From the NCBI GenBank assembly GCA_002269645.1, contig NIVC01003018.1, forward strand, positions 1 through 62,388: DNA of 62,388 bases. The letters run 5' to 3'. This document shows positions 1-41,600 of the stretch, piece by piece. Positions within the stretch are counted from its first letter, which is position 1, and each line of letters opens with the position of its first letter. The notes beneath the pieces were generated by a model. It did not search any database, was not told where the DNA came from, and saw nothing but the letters and a program-made list of their open reading frames with translations. The position numbers and the translations under genes are program-made. Origin of the DNA: Macrostomum lignano. Its lineage: Eukaryota.

Positions 1-365
1 TCCAGATAGGACAGCGCCAATAGCAAGGCCAGAGCTTGCGAGGGTGTCCAGGCCGCTGCCGCAAGCAGTCCTCGGCGCGCTCTAGCAGGCGCTCCAGGAC
101 GTCAAGCGTCGACTCAGGAGGCATGAGGCCACACAGTGTCCTCCAGGGGGCGTCCAATTGCACCCGACTTTTCTGGGTGGCCTGCAGATAGGCGTTGTTC
201 AGCGCTTCCTCCAAACGAATTCTGGCAGGACTCATGCCGTCCGCGGTAGCCGTGATAGCCCGAATTGTCGCAGCAGACTGCGCATCAAGCCACGGGGCCC
301 GGTTCAGGGCGGCCGCCAAGCTGGGCGTCACAGTGAGTGGCGTCTCGCTCGTCGACGTCTCTCAT
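1..365 (-). CDS. Candidate extra ORF (ORF3) downstream of pol, unknown product, partial
   Basis: Stop-free minus frame from 361 to the window edge (ETSTSETPLTVTPSLAAALNRAPWLDAQSAATIRAITATADGMSPARIRLEEALNNAYLQATQKSRVQLDAPWRTLCGLMPPESTLDVLERLLERA...). GC-rich and coding-like. The ATG at 365 is 1 nt out of frame; there is an in-frame ATG at 235. Confidence 0.5.
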
Positions 366-477
366 GATACGAACCAGCGGGTTTGAAGTTGTCGAGACGC
401 GCCAAAAATTACAATGATAAAATTGATAGCTATGAGAGAGCCGAAAATTGTTGCTATAAACGCGGAATAACAAACCG

Positions 478-514
478 ACTGATGACAATCACGAGAAAGG
501 GGGGGCCTTAAATA
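478..514 (-). promoter_or_regulatory. Putative internal core promoter (TATA-like TATTTAA plus TCAGT initiator) upstream of ORF3
   Basis: Minus strand TATTTAA at 514-508 and TCAGT at 482-478; CCAAT at about 721-725. Confidence 0.35.
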
Positions 515-1399
515 GTCAGGCTCAAAACCAACCGTTGAATAAAGGCGGAAAAGGCACCAACCGTGGGAGCGGGTCGGCGCTTCCCCATGTACTCTATGGC
601 GGTTTGCACAAAATGGGGTGGGCGCATAAAATCAAGGAGTAATAAAACAGATAAACCGCGCGGCAGGGGTCAGAACAAATGAATCAGATGGGGGCGCCTT
701 AAACGGCTCACATTAAACAGATTGGCGGTTGAACAGGCGAAATATCGCATAGCAAAGTTAGAATAGAATAATAGGATAGTAGATGGTTAGCGCTTGATAA
801 AACATAAACAGGTTTCATAAGAAGTTACAATACACAGGGCTGACCAAGGCACTGGAAGGAGGAGCCAAACAGACAGCCCTCACAAGTTCCCAGGCTCGAG
901 CAGAATTAAACAAAGAACAGGGGTCAAGTCCTCGGATGCCCTCCACTAGGGACAGGGCTGGATCCGGGCACAGACAGATTTGGCCCAAAACGGCGGGCTC
1001 ACAGAGCAGAAACGGGGCCTTGAGTTTAAAAGAAATAGAAGATTTTTACAATTTCGTGAGCTGCTTTTCTCCTGAAAGCATAAGGCGAAAATGGGATACT
1101 TCCGCACTTTGAGCGTGTGCAAGGAAGTTCACATGAAATGGGGAAACGCAACTAATGAAAGCATTTACACAATGATTTCTTACGGTACCGCATTGGCTAA
1201 GTAATTCGCATTGGTTAAATAATTGTCACGTTGAATAAAGATGATCGCATTGGTGCGAGCTTTTGCCAGAAAGCTTAAGGATAAATAGATAGCGCGTGAG
1301 TGCGGAATTAATGAAACGCATAGGATAAATAGCAAATCGCACACTTTACATGAGCACTGAAACTGTTCAGAATGTACACTGCTTTTAGCCGGAAAGCAT

Positions 1400-1810
1400 A
1401 AGGAACGGCAAAATTAATAGCTGCTTTTATCCTTCAAGCATAAGGAGAGTACAATGAAATTGAAACTGCTTTTATCCCTCAAGCATAAGGAAAGTACATT
1501 GAAATTGAAACTGCTTTTATCCCTCAAGCATAAGGAAAGTACATGAAATTGAAACTGCTTTTATCCCTCAAGCATAAGGAAAGTACATGAAATTGAAACT
1601 GCTTTTATCCCTCAAGCATAAGGAAAGTACATTGAAATTGAAACTGCTTTTATCCCTCAAGCATAAGGAAAGTACATGAAATTGAAACTGCTTTTATCCC
1701 TCAAGCATAAGGAAAGTACATTGAAATTGAAACATTGCTTTAGCCATCAAGCATAAGGAAACGGACAGAAAATTTGTTGCTTTTATCCCTCAAGCATAAG
1801 GAAAATAAAA
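1400..1810. repeat. 41/42-bp tandem repeat inside the retroelement, between pol and ORF3
   Basis: Unit GAAATTGAAACTGCTTTTATCCCTCAAGCATAAGGAAAGTACAT(T), about 7 near-perfect copies at 1456-1745, with degenerate copies near 1060, 1380, 1420 and 1780. Confidence 0.95.
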
Positions 1811-1981
1811 TTGAACTGGAAAAAAATTGAAATCTGCTTTCAGCACAGAACAGATGCAGAGAAAGCTTACCGCGAAATTAAAATCGGAACGCGTTCACAA
1901 ATTGGACTACTACTACGAGTAGTAATGCGCATCAAAAGTTAGCAACTTGGCGCAACAGAAAATTCATTGGTAAATACCTTT

Positions 1982-4900
1982 TCAGATCTCCGTCTCCATG
2001 CCGATGTCAGGCAGATCCGGGTCGCCTTCGGCGAGCACTTCCGGATGGCGGAGGCTCGGCTCGAACAGCTGACTGCCTCGCAGGTCTGGCTGAGCTGTGG
2101 CCGGCTGCTCTGGCGCGGGCTGATCGGCTGGGTCGACTTCGCTGTCTTCGCTCAACTCATAGGGCAGCATTGGCCGCTCTGTTTGGCGCGGTGGCTCCTG
2201 TGGTCGATCCGCCATCATCTGCGGCACCTTAATTATGTTGTTGCGATGTACCAACATTTCGGCGGGGCGTCCTCGTCGGGCAGTTGCTGGCTGGATCCAA
2301 TAGGCTACTTCGCCGACCTTTCTGTTGACCTTGTACATACTCTTGTACGGCCGGTGGAACTTGGGCAGCTCACCCAACTCGAGCTTCGGGTTGGCCAGGT
2401 AGACCAGATCTCCGGGCTGCAGTTCCACGGGCTTGGGTCGGTTCTCGTAGTATTCTTCGCGGCGTTGGATCTCGGCTCGCAATCGCTGTCGCACAATTCT
2501 CTCGGTCTCGGCCAGTCTGCGCTGATGCTTTGCGATGTACTCGGGGAGGTCCGGCGATACGTCCAGGCGGTCTAGGGTGTTATCGATCGGGTAGCGATAA
2601 GGCACTCCGTAAACGACGTAATGCGGCGAGAATCCCGTCGTACGATTGACAGCTGATCGCAGGGCTGTCAAAGCGGCTGGCAGCATCTTGTCCCACTGTT
2701 GATGATCTTCGAGAAGACAAGTGAGCACCTTCTTGATGTTTTTGTTGCACGATTCAGCTTGTCCATTGGCCCAGGGCGAATATGGCGGCGTCGTTGTCTG
2801 CCGGATGCCATAGACTTCGCAAAAATGTCGAAACTCGTGCCCAGTGAACTGTTTGCCTTGGTCCGAATGGATCCACGCGGGGATTCCGGTGATCGGGAAG
2901 ACTTGTTCCTGCAGCAGAGTTATGATCGTCTTGGCCCGCTGATTCTTCATGGCGAAGGCGAATGGATATTTCGACGTAGTGTCGACATAGGTGAGGATGT
3001 ACTTGTTGCCTCGGTCTGTCGGGTCGCCAGTGGGGCCCATGATGTCGATTGCGCATCGCCCATAGATTTCGCAAACCGGGAACGACTGTACATGCGCCGG
3101 AATTCGTCGCCGTCCTTTGCTTTGAGTGCAGGTCTGGCAGGAAGCGACATAGTCGGACACTGCCTTGGCCAGGGCAGGTCGCCAGAACCTTTCGCGCACC
3201 TTCGCGATGGTGAGGTCTCGGCCCATGTGTCCGCAGTAGGGCGAACCGTGCAGGTCGGCAAACACAGTGGTGTCGAGGCTCTTCGGCAGAACGATCCGCG
3301 CTTTCTCCTCTTCGCCAATATCGTCGAGATGAATAACTAATAGTCCATCGTCTCGGACTTCGAGCTGCTCGTAGAACGCTAGTAAGTTTCGTTCGTCTCG
3401 CGTCATATTCAATCGCTGATTTAGTGGCGGTTTTGGCTGTCGACTTTCGATTAAGTTAATCAGCATCGCGATAGCAGAGTCAGCTCGCTGATGGGTCTGG
3501 AGCTCCTCGCGAGTGACTGGCCTCGGAATGTGATCCGTTAAATTCAAAGTTTGGCGTCGGTTAGTCGGATTAGTCGGCGCGGCTTCGGCTGTGGCGGCGT
3601 GGTTCGGGGTCGGGAGCTCCCTCCGCACGATCGCTACTCTGGCCTGTTGCCGGGTCGTTGAAGAATTTGAAGGCCGATCCTCGTCGGTCGTTTCGGCGTC
3701 ATAATCAGCAGAATTGGATTCGTCAGCAGATGAGAGCGAGTCAGCGGAACTGTCGGTATCAAGGCTGAATCTCACTTTCTTGGACATAGGACGGCGAGCG
3801 GGTTGGCAGCGGTCTTCGCTGGCTGCGCTGTGGTCGCTATCCTCGTCGCCTTCAGCTAGTAGCCGGCGGCTCCTTGACGGGCAACATGTCGTGCTGCTAA
3901 AGCTGGTGGGCGACCTCTGTGAGTCCCGATAACGACTGGCAGATGGCCTCGACTTCGTCGCCGGCGGATGCAGCTCTGTCAGCGGCTTGCTGTCGGCTGT
4001 CGGTGTTGCGGGCGGCGTAGTCTCGCCGTTGGACTCAGTTGATTTCGTCAGCGGCTTTCGTCGGTGACGGCGGGTCGGTCGCTCCTTGCTCGGTGGAGGA
4101 CTAGGGTGGCTGCTGTCGTGGACCTTCGGCGCCGCTGCGCCAGTTATCGCGGCTGGCTGCTTACTTTGGTCCCCGACTGCGGCCTCTCGCTGAGCCTCCT
4201 CCAAACATTCAGCGTCGTCCTCAGGCCGTCTTGAGAGGCCGTCGGCGTTCTGATGCTGACTTGATTTTCGATGCTGGATTCGGAACTCGAATTCACTTAG
4301 GCGCGGTAGCCATCGTCCAAAAATTCCTTCTTGCTGAGTTCGCCTTAAGATCCAGGTTAATGCGGCATGATCGGTTCGGCAGATAAACTTCTTGGCCAGC
4401 AGGTAGAATCTGAAGTGTCGCATTCCATCTACGACTGCCAAGAGTTCCTGTTTAGTGATCGGATACCGGGCTTCAGCTGGTTTGAGTCGCCGGGAGAAAT
4501 AGCCAATTGGTCGCTCAACTCCATCAGCTTGGCGTTGGCTCAGGCAGGCTCCGATTCTGGTCGCAGAAGCATCCGTGTCCAGGATAAACATTACATCCGG
4601 ATTTTCACTGAACTGCGGATACGCGAGCACTGTCGTCGAAGTCATTGCGGCCTTGAGCTGATCAAACGCATCTTGCTGGGCTTTTCCCCATAGACAATTG
4701 AAGTTTCTAATCCTCTTCTCCTTAATCAGATCGTGGAGCGGAGCAGCAAGTTCTGCATAGCTAGGTACAAATTTTGCATAGTAAGCGCACGTGCAGACGA
4801 AACTTTTAAGTTGTCGGGCTGTTCTTGGTCTTGGCCAGGTTTGAATTGCCTCAATCTTCGCCGGATCAGTCTTGATTCCGTCCTTCGTTACCACATGTCC

Positions 4901-6568
4901 CAGATAGTTTAGACTTTCCCGAAATAGATGGCACTTTTTGCCTTTGAACTTTAGATTAGCTTCTTGAACTCGCTTGAATACTTCTTCCATATGCCGTAGG
5001 TGGTCATTAAATTCCTTGGAATAGACGATTACGTCATCCAGGTAGGCGATAGCACTTTTATAGGCAATCCCGTTGAGCACAGCGTTCATGAGGCGCATGA
5101 AGCTGGCTGGTGCTGAGCTGAGTCCCATTGGCATAACGTTGTAGGCGAATTGTCCGCGGTGCAGCGTGGCGAAGGCAGTCAGATCTTGATCCTCTGGGCG
5201 CAGCGGAATCTGATAATAGCCACTGTTCAGGTCGAATGTACTGAATAGTTGACTTCCTTCGAGGCTGGCGAATGCTTCTTGGATATTAGGAATCGGGTAC
5301 GGAAAGTACTCACACTTTTGGTTCAGACTCCTGAAATCTTGCACAATTCGTAGGCTGCCGTCCTTCTTCGGGATGATCACCAGCGGGGTGTTGTAGCTGG
5401 AGAAGCTCGGTCGAATCACGCCTTTGGCCAGCAGATCGTCGAGTAACTGGTCCACCTTGGGTAGCAGGTGCGGCGGGATCCTTCGCGTTGGGAGATGCAC
5501 CGGATCTTTGTCCTTCAGTACGATGTTGTGGGTGACCAGATGAGTTCGGCCGAGATCGTGTGGCCCCTGCGAGAAGATGGTCTTGTACTTTCTCAATAGC
5601 TCGATGACTTGAGCGCGCTGGTCTTTGGACAGATCCTCACTGATATCGATCTCCTTAATCCAGGCATCGGGATCCTCGTCTTGGATTTGATTGACAGAGT
5701 CTTCTGATTTCAGCAGCGGGAAGAAATGTAGCTCGGGCAGTCTGATTGGTCTAGCAATCCCGACTAGGGCATTCGCTCGCACTTTGATGGCTGTAGTGCC
5801 ACGGTTGATCATTTCGATAGCGCCTTCTCCATTAGCCATGGAAATCAGGGCAGGCGCGGCGTCCAGGTGCTGCACATCTTCTTCACGCCGAGCCGGTTTC
5901 AGCGGCTCGATCACTGCGGGTGTACCCTGATTTTCTTCTCGTCCTTTTGCTAATTTGATTTTGATTCGGGCCGATGATAATGGTGGCACGGTAGTGCTCT
6001 CGGTGGTGTAAATTCTGCACGTTGTAGCTTCAGTTCGCGTATAGCGAAGCGGTGCGGCAGTGCCGTCCTTGAAAAACAGCATTCCGGCGGCGAGGTCCAG
6101 TGATGTGCTGTACTTCTCCAGGAACTCGAAACCCAGAATGTTGTCATGCGATCCTTTCGCTAGCAGAAACTTGACTGTAGGCTCGAAATTACCAATTTTC
6201 ACTTTAATAGATAGCTGGCCTGCCATTTGAATAGGCTCTCCATTGTAGGTCACGATACGTTGAAGGCAGGGCTCGATTTGGCCACGCAGGGTCGGGTCGT
6301 CAGTACATAGGCGGTGCCAGGTGCTGAATCCTAGGACTTCGCACTTGGACTCAGTATCAAGCAAGAAAGCAAAATAGCGGCCCTGAATCTCACCAGTTAG
6401 AAACGGGTCTCTCCGAGGTCGCTTGGGTGCTAATGGCTGTACAGGTGCGGCGGAGGCGGTCTCAGCAGTGGCCTGCTGAGCGACTAAAGTCCGCGGCGGG
6501 GACTTCAGTGCTGGCTCGGCTGCTGGATGGCGCTGCCCCCGATGGCGCGTCCAGCCGTCCCGTTTCCC
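1982..6568 (-). CDS. pol: Pol polyprotein (aspartic protease, RT, RNase H, integrase), expressed as Gag-Pol by -1 frameshift
   Basis: ORF 1982-6937. PR LLDTES (6350-6358); RT LRIVQDFRSLN, FDLNSGYYQI, YLDD (5033-5044); RH FILDTDAS...IGACLSQ, TDHAAL, NADGLSR; IN H-x6-H...CQTC, IDIMGP, HSDQGKQF, NGQAES; GPY/F-like C-terminus; no chromodomain. Confidence 0.95.
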   Translation of the reverse strand, partial: GKRDGWTRHRGQRHPAAEPALKSPPRTLVAQQATAETASAAPVQPLAPKRPRRDPFLTGEIQGRYFAFLLDTESKCEVLGFSTWHRLCTDDPTLRGQIEPCLQRIVTYNGEPIQMAGQLSIKVKIGNFEPTVKFLLAKGSHDNILGFEFLEKYSTSLDLAAGMLFFKDGTAAPLRYTRTEATTCRIYTTESTTVPPLSSARIKIKLAKGREENQGTPAVIEPLKPARREEDVQHLDAAPALISMANGEGAIEMINRGTTAIKVRANALVGIARPIRLPELHFFPLLKSEDSVNQIQDEDPDAWIKEIDISEDLSKDQRAQVIELLRKYKTIFSQGPHDLGRTHLVTHNIVLKDKDPVHLPTRRIPPHLLPKVDQLLDDLLAKGVIRPSFSSYNTPLVIIPKKDGSLRIVQDFRSLNQKCEYFPYPIPNIQEAFASLEGSQLFSTFDLNSGYYQIPLRPEDQDLTAFATLHRGQFAYNVMPMGLSSAPASFMRLMNAVLNGIAYKSAIAYLDDVIVYSKEFNDHLRHMEEVFKRVQEANLKFKGKKCHLFRESLNYLGHVVTKDGIKTDPAKIEAIQTWPRPRTARQLKSFVCTCAYYAKFVPSYAELAAPLHDLIKEKRIRNFNCLWGKAQQDAFDQLKAAMTSTTVLAYPQFSENPDVMFILDTDASATRIGACLSQRQADGVERPIGYFSRRLKPAEARYPITKQELLAVVDGMRHFRFYLLAKKFICRTDHAALTWILRRTQQEGIFGRWLPRLSEFEFRIQHRKSSQHQNADGLSRRPEDDAECLEEAQREAAVGDQSKQPAAITGAAAPKVHDSSHPSPPPSKERPTRRHRRKPLTKSTESNGETTPPATPTADSKPLTELHPPATKSRPSASRYRDSQRSPTSFSSTTCCPSRSRRLLAEGDEDSDHSAASEDRCQPARRPMSKKVRFSLDTDSSADSLSSADESNSADYDAETTDEDRPSNSSTTRQQARVAIVRRELPTPNHAATAEAAPTNPTNRRQTLNLTDHIPRPVTREELQTHQRADSAIAMLINLIESRQPKPPLNQRLNMTRDERNLLAFYEQLEVRDDGLLVIHLDDIGEEEKARIVLPKSLDTTVFADLHGSPYCGHMGRDLTIAKVRERFWRPALAKAVSDYVASCQTCTQSKGRRRIPAHVQSFPVCEIYGRCAIDIMGPTGDPTDRGNKYILTYVDTTSKYPFAFAMKNQRAKTIITLLQEQVFPITGIPAWIHSDQGKQFTGHEFRHFCEVYGIRQTTTPPYSPWANGQAESCNKNIKKVLTCLLEDHQQWDKMLPAALTALRSAVNRTTGFSPHYVVYGVPYRYPIDNTLDRLDVSPDLPEYIAKHQRRLAETERIVRQRLRAEIQRREEYYENRPKPVELQPGDLVYLANPKLELGELPKFHRPYKSMYKVNRKVGEVAYWIQPATARRGRPAEMLVHRNNIIKVPQMMADRPQEPPRQTERPMLPYELSEDSEVDPADQPAPEQPATAQPDLRGSQLFEPSLRHPEVLAEGDPDLPDIGMETEI

Positions 6569-7895
6569 GAGCTGCTGTTGCGCTGGGATGCGGTGCTGGC
6601 CGACCGTCGGTGCGGGCACTCCTCGGCGCGGTGCTCGCGATTGCACCTGTAACACATGGCATTCTGCCGCCGCAGCTGATAGGGCGGCGGCCTCGAACTC
6701 GACCGTTGCTGCAGCTGCTGCTGCTGCTGACGTTGACCTCCTGCTGGCGGCGTTCTCGGCGGCGGGTTGCTGCCGTCTCGTGGTTGCTGAAGTCGATGGA
6801 ACGGTTGCTGCGGCACCATATGCGTGCCAGGTGTCGTAAATTGGGCGCTTCCGTCGGCGCTGCGGCGAGGAGTCGAGGGTACCAGACATCTGGAGCGTTG
6901 GCCCCACGAGTCCCGCGGCTGGTGGCGAGGTTCCCATGGCTCCGGGGCGTCGTTATCGCGCGATCCCTGAGAGTAGAACTCTCGCATCTCGTTACTCAAA
7001 GTTTCAAGTAGGCGTCGCTGCTCTTGCAATGTCTCGGCTTGTTGTTCCATGACTTCCCGCAACCAGTTCTCCTCGGGCCGAGATGACTTGGCGTCGTGTT
7101 GCACCGCAGTGGGCGTCTGACTGTCGTCATCTTCCAGGACCCGGACATGTCTCGCTGCTGGCGGCGGTGCTACACGCTGAGCCAGACTAGCTGCTGTCTC
7201 CAGGCGTAGCACGGCCCTCCTCGCTGCGGTCAGATTCGGCGGTCGCACCAGGATGAGCTGTTCTCGGGCCGACTGAGCAATCCGCACTCCCACAGTGAAT
7301 TGATCCACCAGTTCAGCCTGCTTCTGAACCGGGGTAAAATGCGGGAACGCTCGATCGGCCAGAGCAATTAGTCGGTCGCCGTAGTCGTCAACATTCTCGT
7401 TCTTGCCCTGCTGGCAGCTTCGGAACTGCTCCCGGTACTCCAGCGTGTCGGCAACATGTGTAAATCGTTCAGATAATCGCTGTTTGAACTCACCAAACGT
7501 CAGATTATCCGGCAGCTCCATTCTGACGACTGCGGGTAGGTGGTGGCGATGTCCAAATTCACGAGGACCTCCGCCTTCTTTCGTCTGTCGTCAACGATTC
7601 CGTTGAGCTCGCATCGCTCTTCGAGAGCCTTGATCCAGACGTCGAATTCCTGGTTGGGCGTGTACCGCTGAATCTTGACCGGTTTCGGCGCTGGAGCTCG
7701 ATCCTGCTGCTGGGGCTGCTGGTACACATGATGATGGTGTTGCGGCTGGCCCAGGCTGGTCTGCTCCAGTCGCCGGCGCACCTCTTCGGTCACCGCGTGA
7801 ATCATCTCGTCGTAGGTCGGTCTTGTATTTGAGTTATCGGGGCCCGCGGCGTCGTTTGTCGCGTCCGCGGCCGTTGAATTAGTAGTTGAAGCCAT
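6505..7895 (-). CDS. gag: Gag with C-terminal CX2CX3HX4C zinc knuckle, split by a 1-nt deletion at about 7535
   Basis: ORFs 7500-7895 and 6505-7521 join into one ~463-aa frame if one base is added in the CCC run at 7534-7536 (...LDIATTY-x-AVVRMELPDNL...). Knuckle CYRCNREHRAEEC at 6616-6654. Confidence 0.88.
6522..6568 (-). promoter_or_regulatory. -1 programmed ribosomal frameshift signal (G_GGA_AAC, 6-nt spacer, hairpin)
   Basis: The heptamer at 6568-6562 is in the gag frame (S-G-N) and pol is in the -1 frame. Stem GCTGGA-CGCGCC / GGC(A)GCG-(CCA)-TCCAGC at 6555-6522. Confidence 0.8.
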
Positions 7896-7940
7896 AACGT
7901 AGATTCTGAACGACTCGTCGAATGGGTTTTGGCGTCTCGT

Positions 7941-7961
7941 AATCCCACTTAGCTGACACCA
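7941..7961 (-). promoter_or_regulatory. Primer binding site for tRNA-Leu, with a 2-nt insertion
   Basis: Minus strand TGGTGTCAG-CT-AAGTGGGATT, 1 nt after the LTR-terminal CA. Complementary to the conserved tRNA-Leu(CAA) 3' end AATCCCACTTCTGACACCA apart from the extra CT. Confidence 0.85.
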
Positions 7962-7962
7962 A

Positions 7963-8981
7963 TGAGGTGGGGGTGGAGAAGTTTTAACAAGGTTTGAAAT
8001 TTGGAGGTCGGCCGGTAATTCTTTGAAAACCGGTAGCGTTGCGTTCGCACGAATAAAACCGGAAAATCGCGCAGACGAATCACAACGAATTTCTTCTCCT
8101 TTTTACTCCGACAGCCGGGGTCCTCAAATTCCGGGGGGAGGGTAGTCGTAATCGTAGCAGAGCGGTCGTTAGAGCGGCACGGTCGTTCAGATGGTAGACA
8201 CCGGAGATTGACACCGTAAAGTAATGTGTCGATTTGCCGAGCTGATTACTGTCAGTAGGGTAGTTGCTGCCACCACCGTAATTTACGTATTACGGAACGT
8301 TTAGTGATCTCAGAGCTTTCTTTGAGATGAGATTTCGGTTATTTTACGCCCCACGGGCAAAGGATTCAAGATAGGCTATGGCTTAAGTCAACGGAATAAA
8401 TATTAAGCGTTAATTTGCTGTTACTTATTAAAGTAATTTGGTTATTAATTTTAAAGCAGGTTGTTTATTGATTAGTGAGTATTATAATGACGATGATGAT
8501 TACACGGGCGCCGGTGCGCTAATAAACTAATAAATTAATGAACTGTAGAAATAAACAGGCAAGATAGTGAGGGAGCGATCGCGCAAGAAGAAAAGGGAGT
8601 GGGAGGGGAGGAGAGGCTTGAAAAAATTGGCAACTGAGCATGAGTAGTTTATATAAGCAAAAGTAGGGCAACGTCCAAAGCATGGGGAAAGATTAGCCAA
8701 CAAGGGGGCCACACCATGGTTAAAGGAAAAATCACACAGAAAAAATATAATGTACCGCTTGATTCCAACTAATGAAAAGGCTGTTAGCCAACGATGGGAA
8801 ACTGATTAGCAACGGTGGGTCCACACACGGGGCCAACAGGAGGAGGGGGGGGGGTGATGTCATAAACAATGGTTGGACGCACGGGTTGGTATTCACGAAG
8901 AAAGAAAATACGGGCGCGCATTCAAAATGGAAGAAAAAATTAAAATTAAAATTATTAAATGGTGGCAACCCCACTGCCACA
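7963..8981 (-). repeat. 5' LTR (about 1.0 kb; outer boundary inferred)
   Basis: The inner end ...CCTCA abuts the PBS. Candidate outer end TGTGG at 8981, after which the sequence turns AT-rich. TATATAAA at about 8655-8648 and AATAAA at 8469-8464 on the minus strand are in U3-R-U5 order. Confidence 0.65.
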
Positions 8982-9916
8982 AAAGACATTTTTGACGTTA
9001 AATTTCCGATGCTGATTCTAGAAACAGAATCAGTTCAATCTTTCAAGAAAAAATCGGAATTTAACTTTGAATATTTGACTGCCCAAGCAGCCTCACTTTG
9101 CAGGATTTTTCACTTTCTTCTTGGCTATTCCATTCAATAGTTACAACTTTAAAGCATAGCACGTATATCCATCCCTCTAGCCTCTAGGCCTACTAAAATC
9201 TAGTTAATAGGTAGGAGACAAGAGTTTTAAAACTTAGATATAATAGGTAAATATGATATAGATCACAATATTAGATATAATTTGACGCATCATGCAATAG
9301 ATTTTAGTGCAATGTTCTAGGTTACCAATTAACCTAAGCTTCTGACAATAAAGGCAATCCTATAGGCCTAGTTTCGCACGTTTTATTATTTTTTGAAAAT
9401 TTTACGAATTTTGAACAAAGTTTGACAAGTTTAACAAGGCCTGCTGCAGGTAAAAAATTCGCGGGTACCAGACTATTCATCTGCCAGCTATTTGTCTGCA
9501 GGCAGACAAACAGTCCAAATTGAAAGTTTTTTAATTTTCAAGAGGTGCTGCACTAATATGCAATAAGATTCTAAAATGTTTTTCATCTATGTTTTACAAA
9601 CAATTATATTCCAGAATTTTTAAAAACAAAGGAAAGGTTGGCTTTGTTAATTAAAAGTTTAAAGTTTCTTAAAATTTTTGGTGCGCACTATTAGCATACC
9701 ATGATTTCATTGCAATGTTGCATTGGCACAGTGTTTTTGATAGCAGGATACTTTCATTTGTGTAGATTATAATACAATGGCTTTAATTTTTTACTGCAGA
9801 ATGGTTTAGAAAAGTAGATAAGACAGCACTACTGCCTTAGTCTAGATTGTATAGTGATGCATTAAAATGACTATAACAAAGTTAGGAACTCTAGCTACTA
9901 AGCTACTATCCTATAA

Positions 9917-38606: not shown

Positions 38607-41600
38607 CAGTTAGTTAGTCAGTTAGTTAGTCAGTTAGTTAGTTAGCTAGTCAGTTAGTTAGTTAGTTAGTTAGCTTTGTGCTCCGCTCCGAGCGACCGCT
38701 CAACCGGGAGCTGCGGTCGACCGTCCAGCTGATCATCGTCTGCCTGGATGGCGGCGGCCTCAACGGTACGGCCGTGGTTCGATTCCGCGTCTCCGACCGG
38801 AACGACAATCCGCCGCGCTTCCAGAAGCCGGTGTTCCAGTTCCACCTGCCCGAGAACACGCCGCCGCCAGAGAACTATCGGATCGGCATAATCAAAGCTA
38901 ACGACAAGGACGAGGGCGAGAACGCGCGCATCGCCTACTCGCTGGAGCCGTCGGCTGATGCGGACGCCTTTCATCTGGACGCTCAGACTGGCCAGCTGTT
39001 CGCCCGGCGGCCATGGGACCGCGAGGAGCTGCTGCGCAGGTCGGCGTCGGGATCGGCCGGCCAACGAAGGCTGGCTCAGGTGAGCCGCGGCAAACGGAGA
39101 AACTAGGGGAAAGAGGGTTCGGTTTTTCAGGTTCGGCTTCGGCTTAGGGGTCCGTGGTTGGCGCTTAGGACTCGGCTTAGCGTTCTCCTTGATTTTATCC
39201 CGGTCGGCAATTCTCATTTTTCTAGTGAGGCAACTTCAAAGTCGCGAACTTAAAACACCGATTTCAAGGTGACCCTGACCGTGACGGCCACGGACTCGAA
39301 CCCGGACCACCGGGACTCAGCCACCGTGCTCGTCACAATCGACAATTTGAACGACAATCGACCGCAGTTTGAGCAGACGGACTACAGCTTCCGGGTGATG
39401 GAGAATGCGCTGATTGGTCGCGAGGTTGGCGCCGTGCGAGCATTCGACGCCGACGACGAGGGCAGTTTGTCGCCCGGACCCATCGATTACGTAATCATCT
39501 CGGCCGGCGACGAGCCGCTGGAGCCGCAGCGGAGCTTCCAGCTCAACCGCAGGACGGGCCAGCTCAGCCTAGCTCGCAAACTCGACCGCGAGACGCGGCC
39601 AAGCTACGTCTTCCGCGTGGCTGCCATCGACAGCGGCGTCTCGGGCGACTCCGGCCGAGGCCGGCTGACCGGCACGGCGACCATCACCGTTGAAGTGGAG
39701 GACGAAAACGACTGCGACCCGCAGATAATAGAGGTGGGCGCCGCTAGGCGCAGCTTGACGCTGTGAACACTTGGGGATAGAGGTGCACAGATTAATGTAT
39801 ACAGTGACTAAACATGTACACTGATGACGGATGTACACTGATTAAGGATGTACACTGATGACGGATGCACACTGATGACGGATGTATACTGATGACGAAT
39901 GTATACTGATGACGGATGTACACTGATAAAGGATGTACACTGATAAAGGATGTACACTGATGACGGATGCACACTGATGACGGATGTACACTGATAAAGG
40001 ATGTACACTGATAAAGGATGTACGCTGATAAAAGATGTAACACTGATGAGGGATGTAAACAGATGAAGAATTTACACTAATGAATTTGCTCTTAACGAAT
40101 CATGTGCGATACTAAGGGCACACAAGCTGACTGCATCCGAAAGCATCAGCCATCTGCACAGTCATTCTCCCACTGCCCCACAGCCGCGAGCAGACCAAGT
40201 CTTCAAAGTGCCGTCATCGACGAAGCCCGGCCGGACTCTGCTGCAGATCCAGGCGGTGGACAACGACGTCGGGCAGAACGCCCAGATTGTCTACAGCTTG
40301 ACTTCCCTGGCCGCCAATGCCATCGGCGTTGACCGCGGCAGCGGCACGGTGATCGTCACGGGGCCGCTCGGACCGCCCGGCGCCAGCTTCGAGGCCACCC
40401 TGGAGGCCAGGGACTGCGGCAGCCCGGCCCGGTTCAGCCGAGTCCGAGTTTTCTTTCGCGTATCGGCGCCAGACGGAGACGACGACAACGTCGACGCCGC
40501 AGCTGCTGGGGAGAATGGCGCCGATCGGGGGAGAATCGGCGGCGGCGGCGGCCTCATCTCCGGCCGGAGCGCATCGACGCGAGCAGTTCTACTGCTGGGC
40601 CTGCTGTTCCTCCTGCTGCTGCTGCTGGCCGCGGCGGCCGCGGTGGCGCTGGTGCTGCTCAGGCCCTGCCGTCGGCGACCAGCAGGTGGCGGCGTCGACG
40701 GAGCCAACGACGTAGCTGGCCGTCAGCGTCGGCGGCACCGGAGGATGCTGGGATCCGAGGCCACCGCGGCAGCGGCGATCACGGAAGCTGCCTCTTCCGG
40801 GAAATGCGGCGGCTTCGAGACGGTGAAGTTCGCGCCGGAGCGAGGTGAGCACACCAGAGCTCAAGGGGGGGGGGAGTTGCCGAGATGCCAAGGCTCAAGG
40901 AAGAGATCCTGAGATGCCAAGGCTCAAGGAAGAGATTCTGAGATGCCAAGGCTCAAGGAAGAGATCCTGAGATGCCAAGGCTCAAGGAAGAGATCCTGAG
41001 ATGCCAAGGCTCAAGGAAGAGATCCTGAGATGCCAAGGCTCAAGGAAGAGATCCTGAGATGCCAAGGCTCAAGGAAGAGATCCTGAGATGCCAAGGCTCA
41101 AGGAAGAGATCCTGAGATGCCATGGCTCAATGGGTTGCTGAGAAGCCATGGCTCAATGGCGAATTGCTGAGAAGCCATGGCTCAATGGGGAGTTGCTGAG
41201 ATGCCATGGCTCAATGGGGAGTTGCTGAGAAGCCATGGCTCCAGTGGGAGTTGCTGAGATGCCATGGCTCAATGGGGAGTTGCTGAGATGCCATGGCTCA
41301 ATGGGGAGTTGCTGAGATGCCATGGCTCAATGGGGAGTTGCTGAGATGCCATGGCTCAATGGGGAGTTGCTGAGATGCCATGGCTCAATGGGGAGTTGCT
41401 GAGATGCCATGGCTCAATGGGGAGGTGCTGAGATGCCATGGCTCCAGTGGGAGTTGCTGAAAAGCCATGGCTCCAGTGGGAGTTGCTGAGATGCCATGGC
41501 TCAATGGGGAGTTGCTGAGATGCCATGGCTCAATGGGGAGTTGCTGAGATGCCATGGCTCAATGGGGAGGTGCTGAGATGCCATGGCTCAATGGGGAGTT

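What the first reader, a model, noticed from the sequence alone, without database searches (positions are those of the whole stretch)
1..740. Candidate extra gene with its own internal promoter inside the gypsy element
Seen: about 1.6 kb downstream of the pol stop, before any 3' LTR, the element's sense strand has TATTTAA (514-508), a TCAGT initiator (482-478) and a CCAAT box (~721-725). Several CAACCG/CAACGG Myb-type hexamers lie at 529, 558 and 726. The first ATG is at 365, 1 nt out of frame with a stop-free frame of about 120 codons that runs off the window. The peptide looks helical, with no signal peptide and no family I recognise; a hydrophobic stretch (WTPSQALALLLALSYL) appears in another frame at the edge. 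Known: some gypsy elements carry env or other accessory ORFs, including the giant Burro elements of planarians. Inference: this is a separately transcribed, non-env accessory protein.
Basis: partly seen in the sequence, partly recalled or inferred. Interest (0 to 1): 0.75.

Follow-up and report, generated by a model that had tools for sequence, protein, structure and literature searches.

The report
Flatworm retrotransposon's orphan third gene
Behind the pol gene of a gypsy retrotransposon lies a broken copy of a gene with relatives found only in Macrostomum lignano, one listed as stem-cell-enriched; it is likely a non-envelope accessory gene of the element, probably read from its own promoter.

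Summary
The motifs and the 120-codon frame are at the stated coordinates. The frame is a real gene. It matches two M. lignano gene models of no known family, Mlig013834 (46% identity, E 2.7e-16) and Mlig017912 (44%). The 'hydrophobic stretch in another frame' is the same protein after a frame break, not a membrane anchor. Short-read contigs hold a second genomic variant, 88% identical over 1-363, whose match stops at the ATG. The intact relatives have no signal peptide or transmembrane segment and are predicted helical, with no Pfam or fold match, so this is not env-like. Published tables list Mlig017912 as one of 357 stringent stem-cell (neoblast) transcript clusters, a 1,242-nt mRNA. No LTR copy or polypurine tract lies between pol and the gene, but the 3' LTR is off the window and no genome was held, so placement inside the element is inferred (about 0.7). 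The TATA/initiator pair is modestly above chance (P 0.01-0.03); no start site was mapped. This copy's ATG is out of frame, so it may be defective. Verdict: likely a new, lineage-restricted kind of non-env ORF3; function untested.

The parts
2..361 (-). Main open frame of the third gene (120 codons); homologous to the relatives down to about 60, where the frame breaks
   Evidence: phmmer hits P0001 46% E 2.7e-16 and P0002 44% E 2.3e-09; tblastn
1..48 (-). Continuation of the same protein in the ATG frame (WTPSQALALLLALSYL); gene runs off the window
   Evidence: PSQALALLLALSY aligns to PRPALALFVTLAY (P0001) and PCPALALLMAIAY (P0002), shuffle P 0.005 and 0.002; the other two frames P 0.40-0.99
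363..365 (-). First ATG after the candidate start site; out of frame with the homologous frame in this copy (gives 26 aa). Next in-frame ATG is at 235, past the conserved RAPWL motif
   Evidence: the 88% variant's match ends at 362/363
478..514 (-). Candidate core promoter: TATTTAA 514-508 and overlapping TCATC/TCAGT initiator-like sites (A at 483 and 480, 31 and 34 nt from the box start)
   Evidence: P 0.009-0.032; activity untested
529..731 (.). Cluster of four CAAC[CG]G hexamers (529, 532, 558, 726); CCAAT at 725-721 is at chance level
   Evidence: the CAAC[CG] 5-mer is also enriched in the 5' part of the LTR (6 vs 1.8, P 0.0065), but the full hexamer is not (1 vs 0.45, P 0.36)
430..454 (-). 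Two acceptor-like TAG sites (ending 454 and 430; 10 and 12 of 14 pyrimidines) in the leader, the basis of the splicing rival
1062..1089 (-). Diverged single copy of the element's 44-nt repeat unit (24 of 28 identical)
   Evidence: joints to the array
1421..1804 (.). 44-nt tandem array (8.6 copies) between pol and the third gene
   Evidence: TRF
1982..6952 (-). pol frame, 1656 codons: protease, RT, RNase H, integrase
6505..7894 (-). gag, split over two frames near 7536-7540
   Evidence: Retrotrans_gag E 2e-4, below cut-off
7963..8981 (-). Candidate 5' LTR (TG...CA), followed by a primer-binding-like site starting TGG at 7961
   Evidence: read; no second copy in the window, so its bounds are unconfirmed

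Best explanation
The region holds the 5' part of a broken copy of a Macrostomum-restricted protein-coding gene that likely lies inside a Ty3/gypsy element as a non-envelope third gene, probably read as a short mRNA from an internal promoter near 480 and predicted to make a soluble helical protein that would act in dividing stem cells. Shown: the gene family, the two frame breaks, a second genomic variant, and the lack of signal or membrane segments in the intact relatives. Taken from published tables: one relative is a 1,242-nt neoblast-enriched transcript. Inferred: placement inside the element (about 0.7); own promoter rather than splicing (about 0.7 if inside). Most likely role (about 0.3, untested): an intracellular adaptor. 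Its helical bundle would bind a host protein and its Arg/Gly-rich tail would bind RNA or target the nucleus, helping the element's RNA escape silencing or leave the nucleus in neoblasts, by analogy with CERV of Cer1. This window's copy probably makes no full protein, because its ATG is out of frame.
For: Coding: P0001 (291 aa, 46%, E 2.7e-16) and P0002 (233 aa, 44%, E 2.3e-09) among 1.84 billion representatives, named Mlig013834g1 and Mlig017912g1/g3, with P0006 = g4; 28 invariant columns in 4 rows. Homology continues in the other frame. Copies: in 4 of 4 runs a contig matches 1-362/363 with 42 differences and 1 gap; in 3 of them it goes on 327-360 unaligned letters upstream. Same-copy contigs with 0 substitutions cover 1-701 (X1, X6), 1-300 (X11) and 672-1273 (X1), each at least one letter longer than the window, so the break near 55 is likely an assembly error. 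Inside the element: no LTR copy; the only purine run of 10 or more in 1-1981 is part of the repeat unit; diverged variants exist along the spacer (1044-1371, 671-1273, 826-1142); a repeat-unit copy at 1089-1062; sense-strand T excess in spacer (T 0.36, A 0.23) and LTR (0.32, 0.24) but not in the flank (0.32, 0.33), and a shared CAAC[CG] 5-mer in LTR and internal promoter. Own mRNA: Mlig017912.g1/.g4 are 'neoblast-strict', linked to RNA1509_45341 (PMC7336406 supplement): 1242 nt, 5UTR_CDS_3UTR, logFC 1.8-3.3 in G2/M vs G1 and -3.9 to -5.5 after irradiation (PMC5173321 supplement). TATA+Inr P 0.009-0.032; GC and CpG step at about 365. Non-env: no N-terminal hydrophobic stretch, no NxS/T, best 19-residue hydropathy 1.4-1.6, and 1.08 on the conserved helix; models helical with core pLDDT 70-90.
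Against: The 3' LTR was never seen, and no listed contig bridges the tandem array, so the pol-to-gene link rests on the window's assembly. Depth over the gene (29 in X1) is far below that over pol (460-1280), so most pol-related copies lack an 85%-like third gene; the LTR's 8479-8792 bin is also low (75) (the tool warns that depth is no copy number). The genomic context of both relatives is unknown. Mlig017912 has at least three near-identical models (g1, g3, g4), as an ordinary host gene would in this redundant assembly. The model P0005 joins P0001's sequence to a host CHMP2A gene with no gag or pol. No protein closer than 46-47% is on record, so this copy's own subtype is not an annotated gene. 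The expression data are for a 44% relative, through an annotation transfer that I did not verify. The ATG offset seems real in X1 (one gap only); X6 shows a second gap whose place is not listed. The full hexamer is not enriched in the LTR (P 0.36). No fold or family match backs any function.
Confidence: 0.5

Rival explanations
1. The gene is a host orphan gene family with neoblast expression, or part of a different mobile unit. The gypsy element here is 3'-truncated or interrupted and merely sits upstream; the promoter is that gene's own.
For: 3' LTR unseen; low depth over the gene relative to pol; Mlig017912 copy pattern and the P0005 join to CHMP2A; stringent neoblast listing, with no transposon term in that file (the file may carry no such tags at all).
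Against: Spacer continuous in short-read contigs from 1273 to 1 with diverged variants along it; repeat-unit copy at 1089-1062; LTR-like strand bias and shared 5-mer; no LTR end or junction seen in 366-1981; pol is intact over 1656 codons.
Confidence: 0.25
2. The gene is inside the element but is expressed from the LTR promoter through a spliced subgenomic RNA or by spliced-leader trans-splicing; the TATA/Inr match is incidental.
For: ORF3s are typically expressed from spliced messages (PMC5408684, passage); acceptor-like sites at 430 and 454 have no ATG between them and 365; about 30% of M. lignano genes are trans-spliced (PMC8629364, passages).
Against: The 430 and 454 sites end in TAG, not the enriched CAG or YTNCAG. 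The nearest YTNCAG, at 852, is followed by six ATGs before 365. My donor pattern printed no site in 7880-8700. TATA+Inr spacing is canonical.
Confidence: 0.2
3. The gene is an env-like membrane protein, or the frame is a chance product.
For: Position after pol; a hydrophobic 13-mer; open-frame P only 0.049; low Atlas recognition.
Against: Intact relatives are 233-291 aa with no signal peptide, no NxS/T, 2-5 Cys, and hydropathy 1.08 on the homologous helix; homology E 2.7e-16.
Confidence: 0.05

Closest known systems
Non-env ORF3s of bdelloid rotifer LTR retrotransposons (Vesta, Juno; PMC5408684, passages)
   Same: Family-specific third gene of about 200-300 aa after pol, in sense, not a true env
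   Different: Those are GDSL lipases, DEDDy exonucleases or transmembrane/coiled-coil proteins, said to be expressed typically from spliced messages. Here there is no Pfam match, no membrane segment, and a candidate internal promoter.
CERV of C. elegans Cer1 (PMC10309623, abstract and passages)
   Same: Lineage-restricted, non-env protein in the env position of a Ty3/gypsy element expressed in germ cells; model for an RNA-export role
   Different: CERV is 517 aa from a spliced 5-exon mRNA sharing gag exons. The relatives here begin with their own Met; no direct comparison with CERV was run.
Burro elements of planarians (PMC6431247, passages)
   Same: Flatworm gypsy elements with extra coding capacity
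   Different: Burro exceeds 30 kb with a 4,873-aa polyprotein bearing BIR, MATH, ankyrin, BCL2-like and env-like domains. Here gag-pol spans about 5.9 kb with only core domains, and the extra gene is separate and downstream.
Additional ORFs of plant LTR retrotransposons, e.g. Retand (PMC7264820 part 1 of 3; PMC11963269 abstract)
   Same: Long pol-to-3'LTR region with tandem repeats and an extra ORF of unknown role
   Different: Plant; Retand ORFs are antisense TRP28 proteins, and sense ones are env-like with membrane segments.
M. lignano gene models Mlig013834 and Mlig017912
   Same: 44-47% identical, same motif order
   Different: Intact and annotated as hypothetical proteins; element context unknown.

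Membership tests
Ty3/gypsy LTR retrotransposon (host element) | gag then PR-RT-RNase H-integrase order | tested here: met
Ty3/gypsy LTR retrotransposon (host element) | 5' LTR with TG...CA ends and primer-binding site | tested here: inconclusive
   ends and a TGG-starting site read at 8981, 7963, 7961; no second copy to confirm bounds
Element-borne ORF3 | lies between pol and PPT/3' LTR | not testable with these tools
   window ends inside the gene; no genome held; no LTR or PPT in 1-1981
Element-borne ORF3 | present and in frame in other copies | tested here: inconclusive
   one 88% variant in 4 of 4 runs with a single gap; its link to pol is not shown
Element-borne ORF3 | purifying selection among copies | not testable with these tools
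   variant positions within 1-365 were not listed
Internally promoted gene | capped 5' ends near 480 | not testable with these tools
   only contigs were served; motif statistics only
env-like ORF3 | N-terminal signal peptide | tested here: not met
   best 11-residue hydropathy in the first 30 aa is 0.1-0.37 in 3 of 3 relatives (simple scale, no SignalP)
env-like ORF3 | C-terminal transmembrane anchor and glycosylation sites | tested here: not met
   no NxS/T in 3 of 3; best 19-mer 1.4-1.6; C-termini polar and Arg/Gly-rich
Burro | giant polyprotein with BIR, MATH, ankyrin, BCL2-like domains | tested here: not met
   1656-codon pol with core domains only
Bcl-2-like proteins (my idea, motif spacing recalled) | Bcl-2 fold or Pfam match | tested here: inconclusive
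   not among listed rows; no Pfam family at E 10; models rest on 4 sequences
GDSL or DEDDy ORF3 | alpha/beta enzyme domain with catalytic motifs | tested here: not met
   0 Pfam families; models nearly all helical
CERV-like | spliced mRNA with gag exons; needed for RNA export | not tested
   analogy only

The most novel reading that the evidence does not exclude
M. lignano gypsy elements carry a previously undescribed accessory gene family with its own cell-cycle-responsive internal promoter, co-regulated with the LTR through shared CAAC[CG] sites. It fires in neoblasts as a short mRNA and encodes a new helical adaptor that counters stem-cell transposon silencing. At least one 'stringent neoblast' gene (Mlig017912) would then be a retrotransposon gene or a domesticated copy of one.
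Probability: 0.2. Interest if true: 0.8.

Novelty: new variant of a known kind. Interest (0 to 1): 0.52.

Why it matters
Non-env third genes are known in LTR retrotransposons, but this protein family has no match in Pfam, PHROGs, PDB sequences or the fold libraries searched, and no relative outside one species. If it is element-borne, it ties an uncharacterised stem-cell marker of a regeneration model to a retrotransposon. It would also give a directly testable case, in an animal with RNAi and transgenesis, of how a transposon works in PIWI-guarded somatic stem cells, and an internal promoter would depart from the usual spliced ORF3.

Tried and rejected
Own genome: none held. Pfam: 0 families for the window frame and 3 relatives; PHROGs 0 of 3; PDB sequences 0 at E 10; Rfam 0 in 1-9400. 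Atlas: best 0.83 to unnamed bacterial clusters for the window frame, no usable hit for P0001. Of 4 phmmer hits, P0003 (PPR repeats) and P0004 (SH3) were dropped as spurious repeat matches. Word-based searches: none among longer proteins (weak evidence); only P0001 and P0002 at near length. No relative in metagenome (598 pattern hits, 0 confirmed) or viral contigs (134, 0). Four distant integrase loci (30-34%) carry no such gene. Fold searches: Foldseek none at E 0.001; VIA best Z 7.9, 7.8 and 6.3, generic helical bundles; Bcl-2 not listed. No RNA holder listed; X11 and X12 are only guessed RNA and also cover the flank, so they were not used for expression. No nucleotide similarity between spacer and LTR beyond chance (P 0.18) and no canonical heat-shock element. 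Earlier scan findings: none. Gene ids absent from main texts and from the supplements of PMC12801592, PMC5730564, PMC5816591 and PMC7806878. Literature searches listed no description of such an ORF. Grohme 2018 and the earlier M. lignano LTR classification paper were not read; bioRxiv supplements and the 137 family consensus set were not seen.

Full report
Observation. On the minus strand pol ends at 1982 and the first ATG after 480 is at 365. TATTTAA (514-508), TCAGT (482-478), CCAAT (725-721) and four CAAC[CG]G hexamers (529, 532, 558, 726) are present. The ATG frame stops after 26 codons, and the neighbouring frame is open for 120 codons to the window edge. In 3000 dinucleotide shuffles the TATA-plus-initiator pair has P 0.009-0.032, CCAAT is chance (0.70), strict Myb YAACKG (recalled consensus) occurs once (0.55), and the looser hexamer is enriched (0.002, chosen post hoc). 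The open frame alone has P 0.049. GC and CpG rise sharply at about 365.

The host element. Pfam finds protease, RT, RNase H and integrase in order in a 1656-codon frame, and a weak gag match upstream. A candidate LTR runs 8981-7963 with TG...CA ends and a TGG-starting primer site. It has no second copy in the window. Between pol and the gene lie a 44-nt tandem array (1421-1804) and a diverged repeat unit at 1089-1062; there is no polypurine tract other than a run inside that unit. No whole genome is held. The species is inferred to be Macrostomum lignano or a close relative from the homologs only.

The gene is real. Against 1.84 billion representatives the frame gave 4 hits. Two are M. lignano gene models: P0001 (Mlig013834g1, 291 aa, 46%, E 2.7e-16) and P0002 (Mlig017912g1/g3, 233 aa, 44%, E 2.3e-09), with P0006 (g4) as a near-identical member. 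The other two are repeat proteins and were dropped. So the window's copy has two frame breaks: just after the ATG, and near 55.

Short-read contigs (4 of the 24 listed runs laid, 85% threshold). Contigs of the same copy, with 0 substitutions, cover 1-701 (X1, X6), 1-300 (X11) and 672-1273 (X1). Each is at least one letter longer than the window, one such gap lying in 1-300, so the break near 55 is likely an assembly error. The ATG offset appears real in X1; X6 has a second gap whose place is not listed. All 4 runs hold a second variant with 42 differences and 1 gap over 1-362/363. In 3 of them the contig continues 327-360 letters upstream without aligning in the listed piece, so the listed match begins at the start codon. 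Diverged variants also occur at 1044-1371, 671-1273, 826-1142 and around 628. Against this, depth over the gene (29 in X1) is far below that over pol (460-1280), and no listed contig bridges the array or shows a 3' LTR.

The protein. The relatives have no signal peptide, no NxS/T, and best hydropathy 1.4-1.6, with 1.08 on the conserved helix. Their tails are Arg/Gly-rich. Two AlphaFold2 models from 4-row alignments (mean pLDDT 58 and 59; core about 70-90) show five or six helices and a small hairpin. Pfam, PHROGs, PDB sequences, the Atlas and six fold searches gave no family; best Z 7.9 is within background for helical bundles. My Bcl-2 idea, from recalled motif spacing, found no support.

Expression of relatives. 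PMC7336406 (passages, supplement rows) lists Mlig017912.g1 and .g4 as 'neoblast-strict', linked to RNA1509_45341, and Mlig013834.g1 as lower in grouped than in isolated worms (OvI_down, my reading of the label). PMC5173321 (passages, supplement row) gives that transcript as 1242 nt, 5UTR_CDS_3UTR, one of 357 stringent neoblast clusters, logFC 1.8, 3.2 and 3.3 for G2/M over G1 and -3.9 to -5.5 after irradiation. I did not verify the id transfer. The Mlig_3_7 models are transcript-derived (PMC5730564, passages). No protein closer than 46-47% is on record, so the window's own subtype is not an annotated gene.

Promoter or splicing. The box-to-initiator distance is 31 or 34 nt. TATTTAA also occurs in the LTR copies of another M. 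lignano family shown in PMC12801592 supplement 5, part 1. The CAAC[CG] 5-mer is enriched in 480-760 (4 vs 1.2, P 0.028) and in the LTR's 5' part (6 vs 1.8, P 0.0065), but in none of 6 other regions; the full hexamer is not enriched in the LTR (P 0.36). Acceptor-like TAG sites at 454 and 430 keep splicing open, and ORF3s are typically spliced (PMC5408684, passages). The motifs enriched at M. lignano acceptors are CAG and YTNCAG (PMC8629364, passages); the nearest such site, at 852, is followed by six ATGs.

Mechanism. Most likely (0.5 overall) this is an element-borne, non-env accessory gene read as a short mRNA from an internal promoter in cycling stem cells. The role I favour (0.3, inference by analogy with CERV, PMC10309623 passages) is an intracellular adaptor that helps element RNA escape silencing or exit the nucleus. 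The main rival (0.25) is a host orphan gene or separate mobile unit next to a truncated element; it is fed by the Mlig017912 copy pattern and by model P0005, which joins P0001 to CHMP2A without gag or pol. Spliced expression takes 0.2; env or chance 0.05.

Comparison and novelty. Extra ORFs after pol are known in rotifers, nematodes and plants. Burro differs in size and architecture (PMC6431247, passages). PMC12801592 (part 1 of 6, passages, supplements 1 and 5 part 1) has no 'ORF' or 'envelope' term in its main text. Nine literature searches listed no description of this gene; subscription papers and the full family set were not seen. Verdict: new variant of a known kind, interest 0.52; placement inside the element and the start site remain to be shown.

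Noticed in passing
window 3300-4290 (-): pol has a roughly 330-residue stretch, largely Ser/Pro/Thr/Arg-rich, between RNase H (ends aa 888) and the integrase zinc domain (starts aa 1223).
   Followed up: no
window 7536-7540 (-): gag is split over two frames here; a share of short-read contigs differ by one letter at this place.
   Followed up: partly
window 7851-8478 and 8479-8792: The 3' part of the LTR is covered very deeply, while 8479-8792 is low, suggesting many subfamilies that share one LTR part and differ in the promoter part.
   Followed up: no
window 8982-9400: The flank outside the LTR is itself deeply covered, so the element probably sits in another repeat.
   Followed up: no
window 40067-40909 (+): Frame with a cadherin domain (E 8.5e-10), probably a host exon among satellites.
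   Followed up: no
window 12500-60800: Dense satellite arrays of many unit lengths (4-73 nt), including inverted 25-nt arrays at about 19.1-22.9 kb.
   Followed up: no
P0005: A 1217-aa gene model joins P0001's sequence to a CHMP2A-like host protein; likely a prediction artefact, but it places that copy near a host gene.
   Followed up: no
P0002, P0006: The two differ by one residue and one copy of a five-residue repeat in the tail; both end in Arg/Gly-rich motifs, as does P0001.
   Followed up: no
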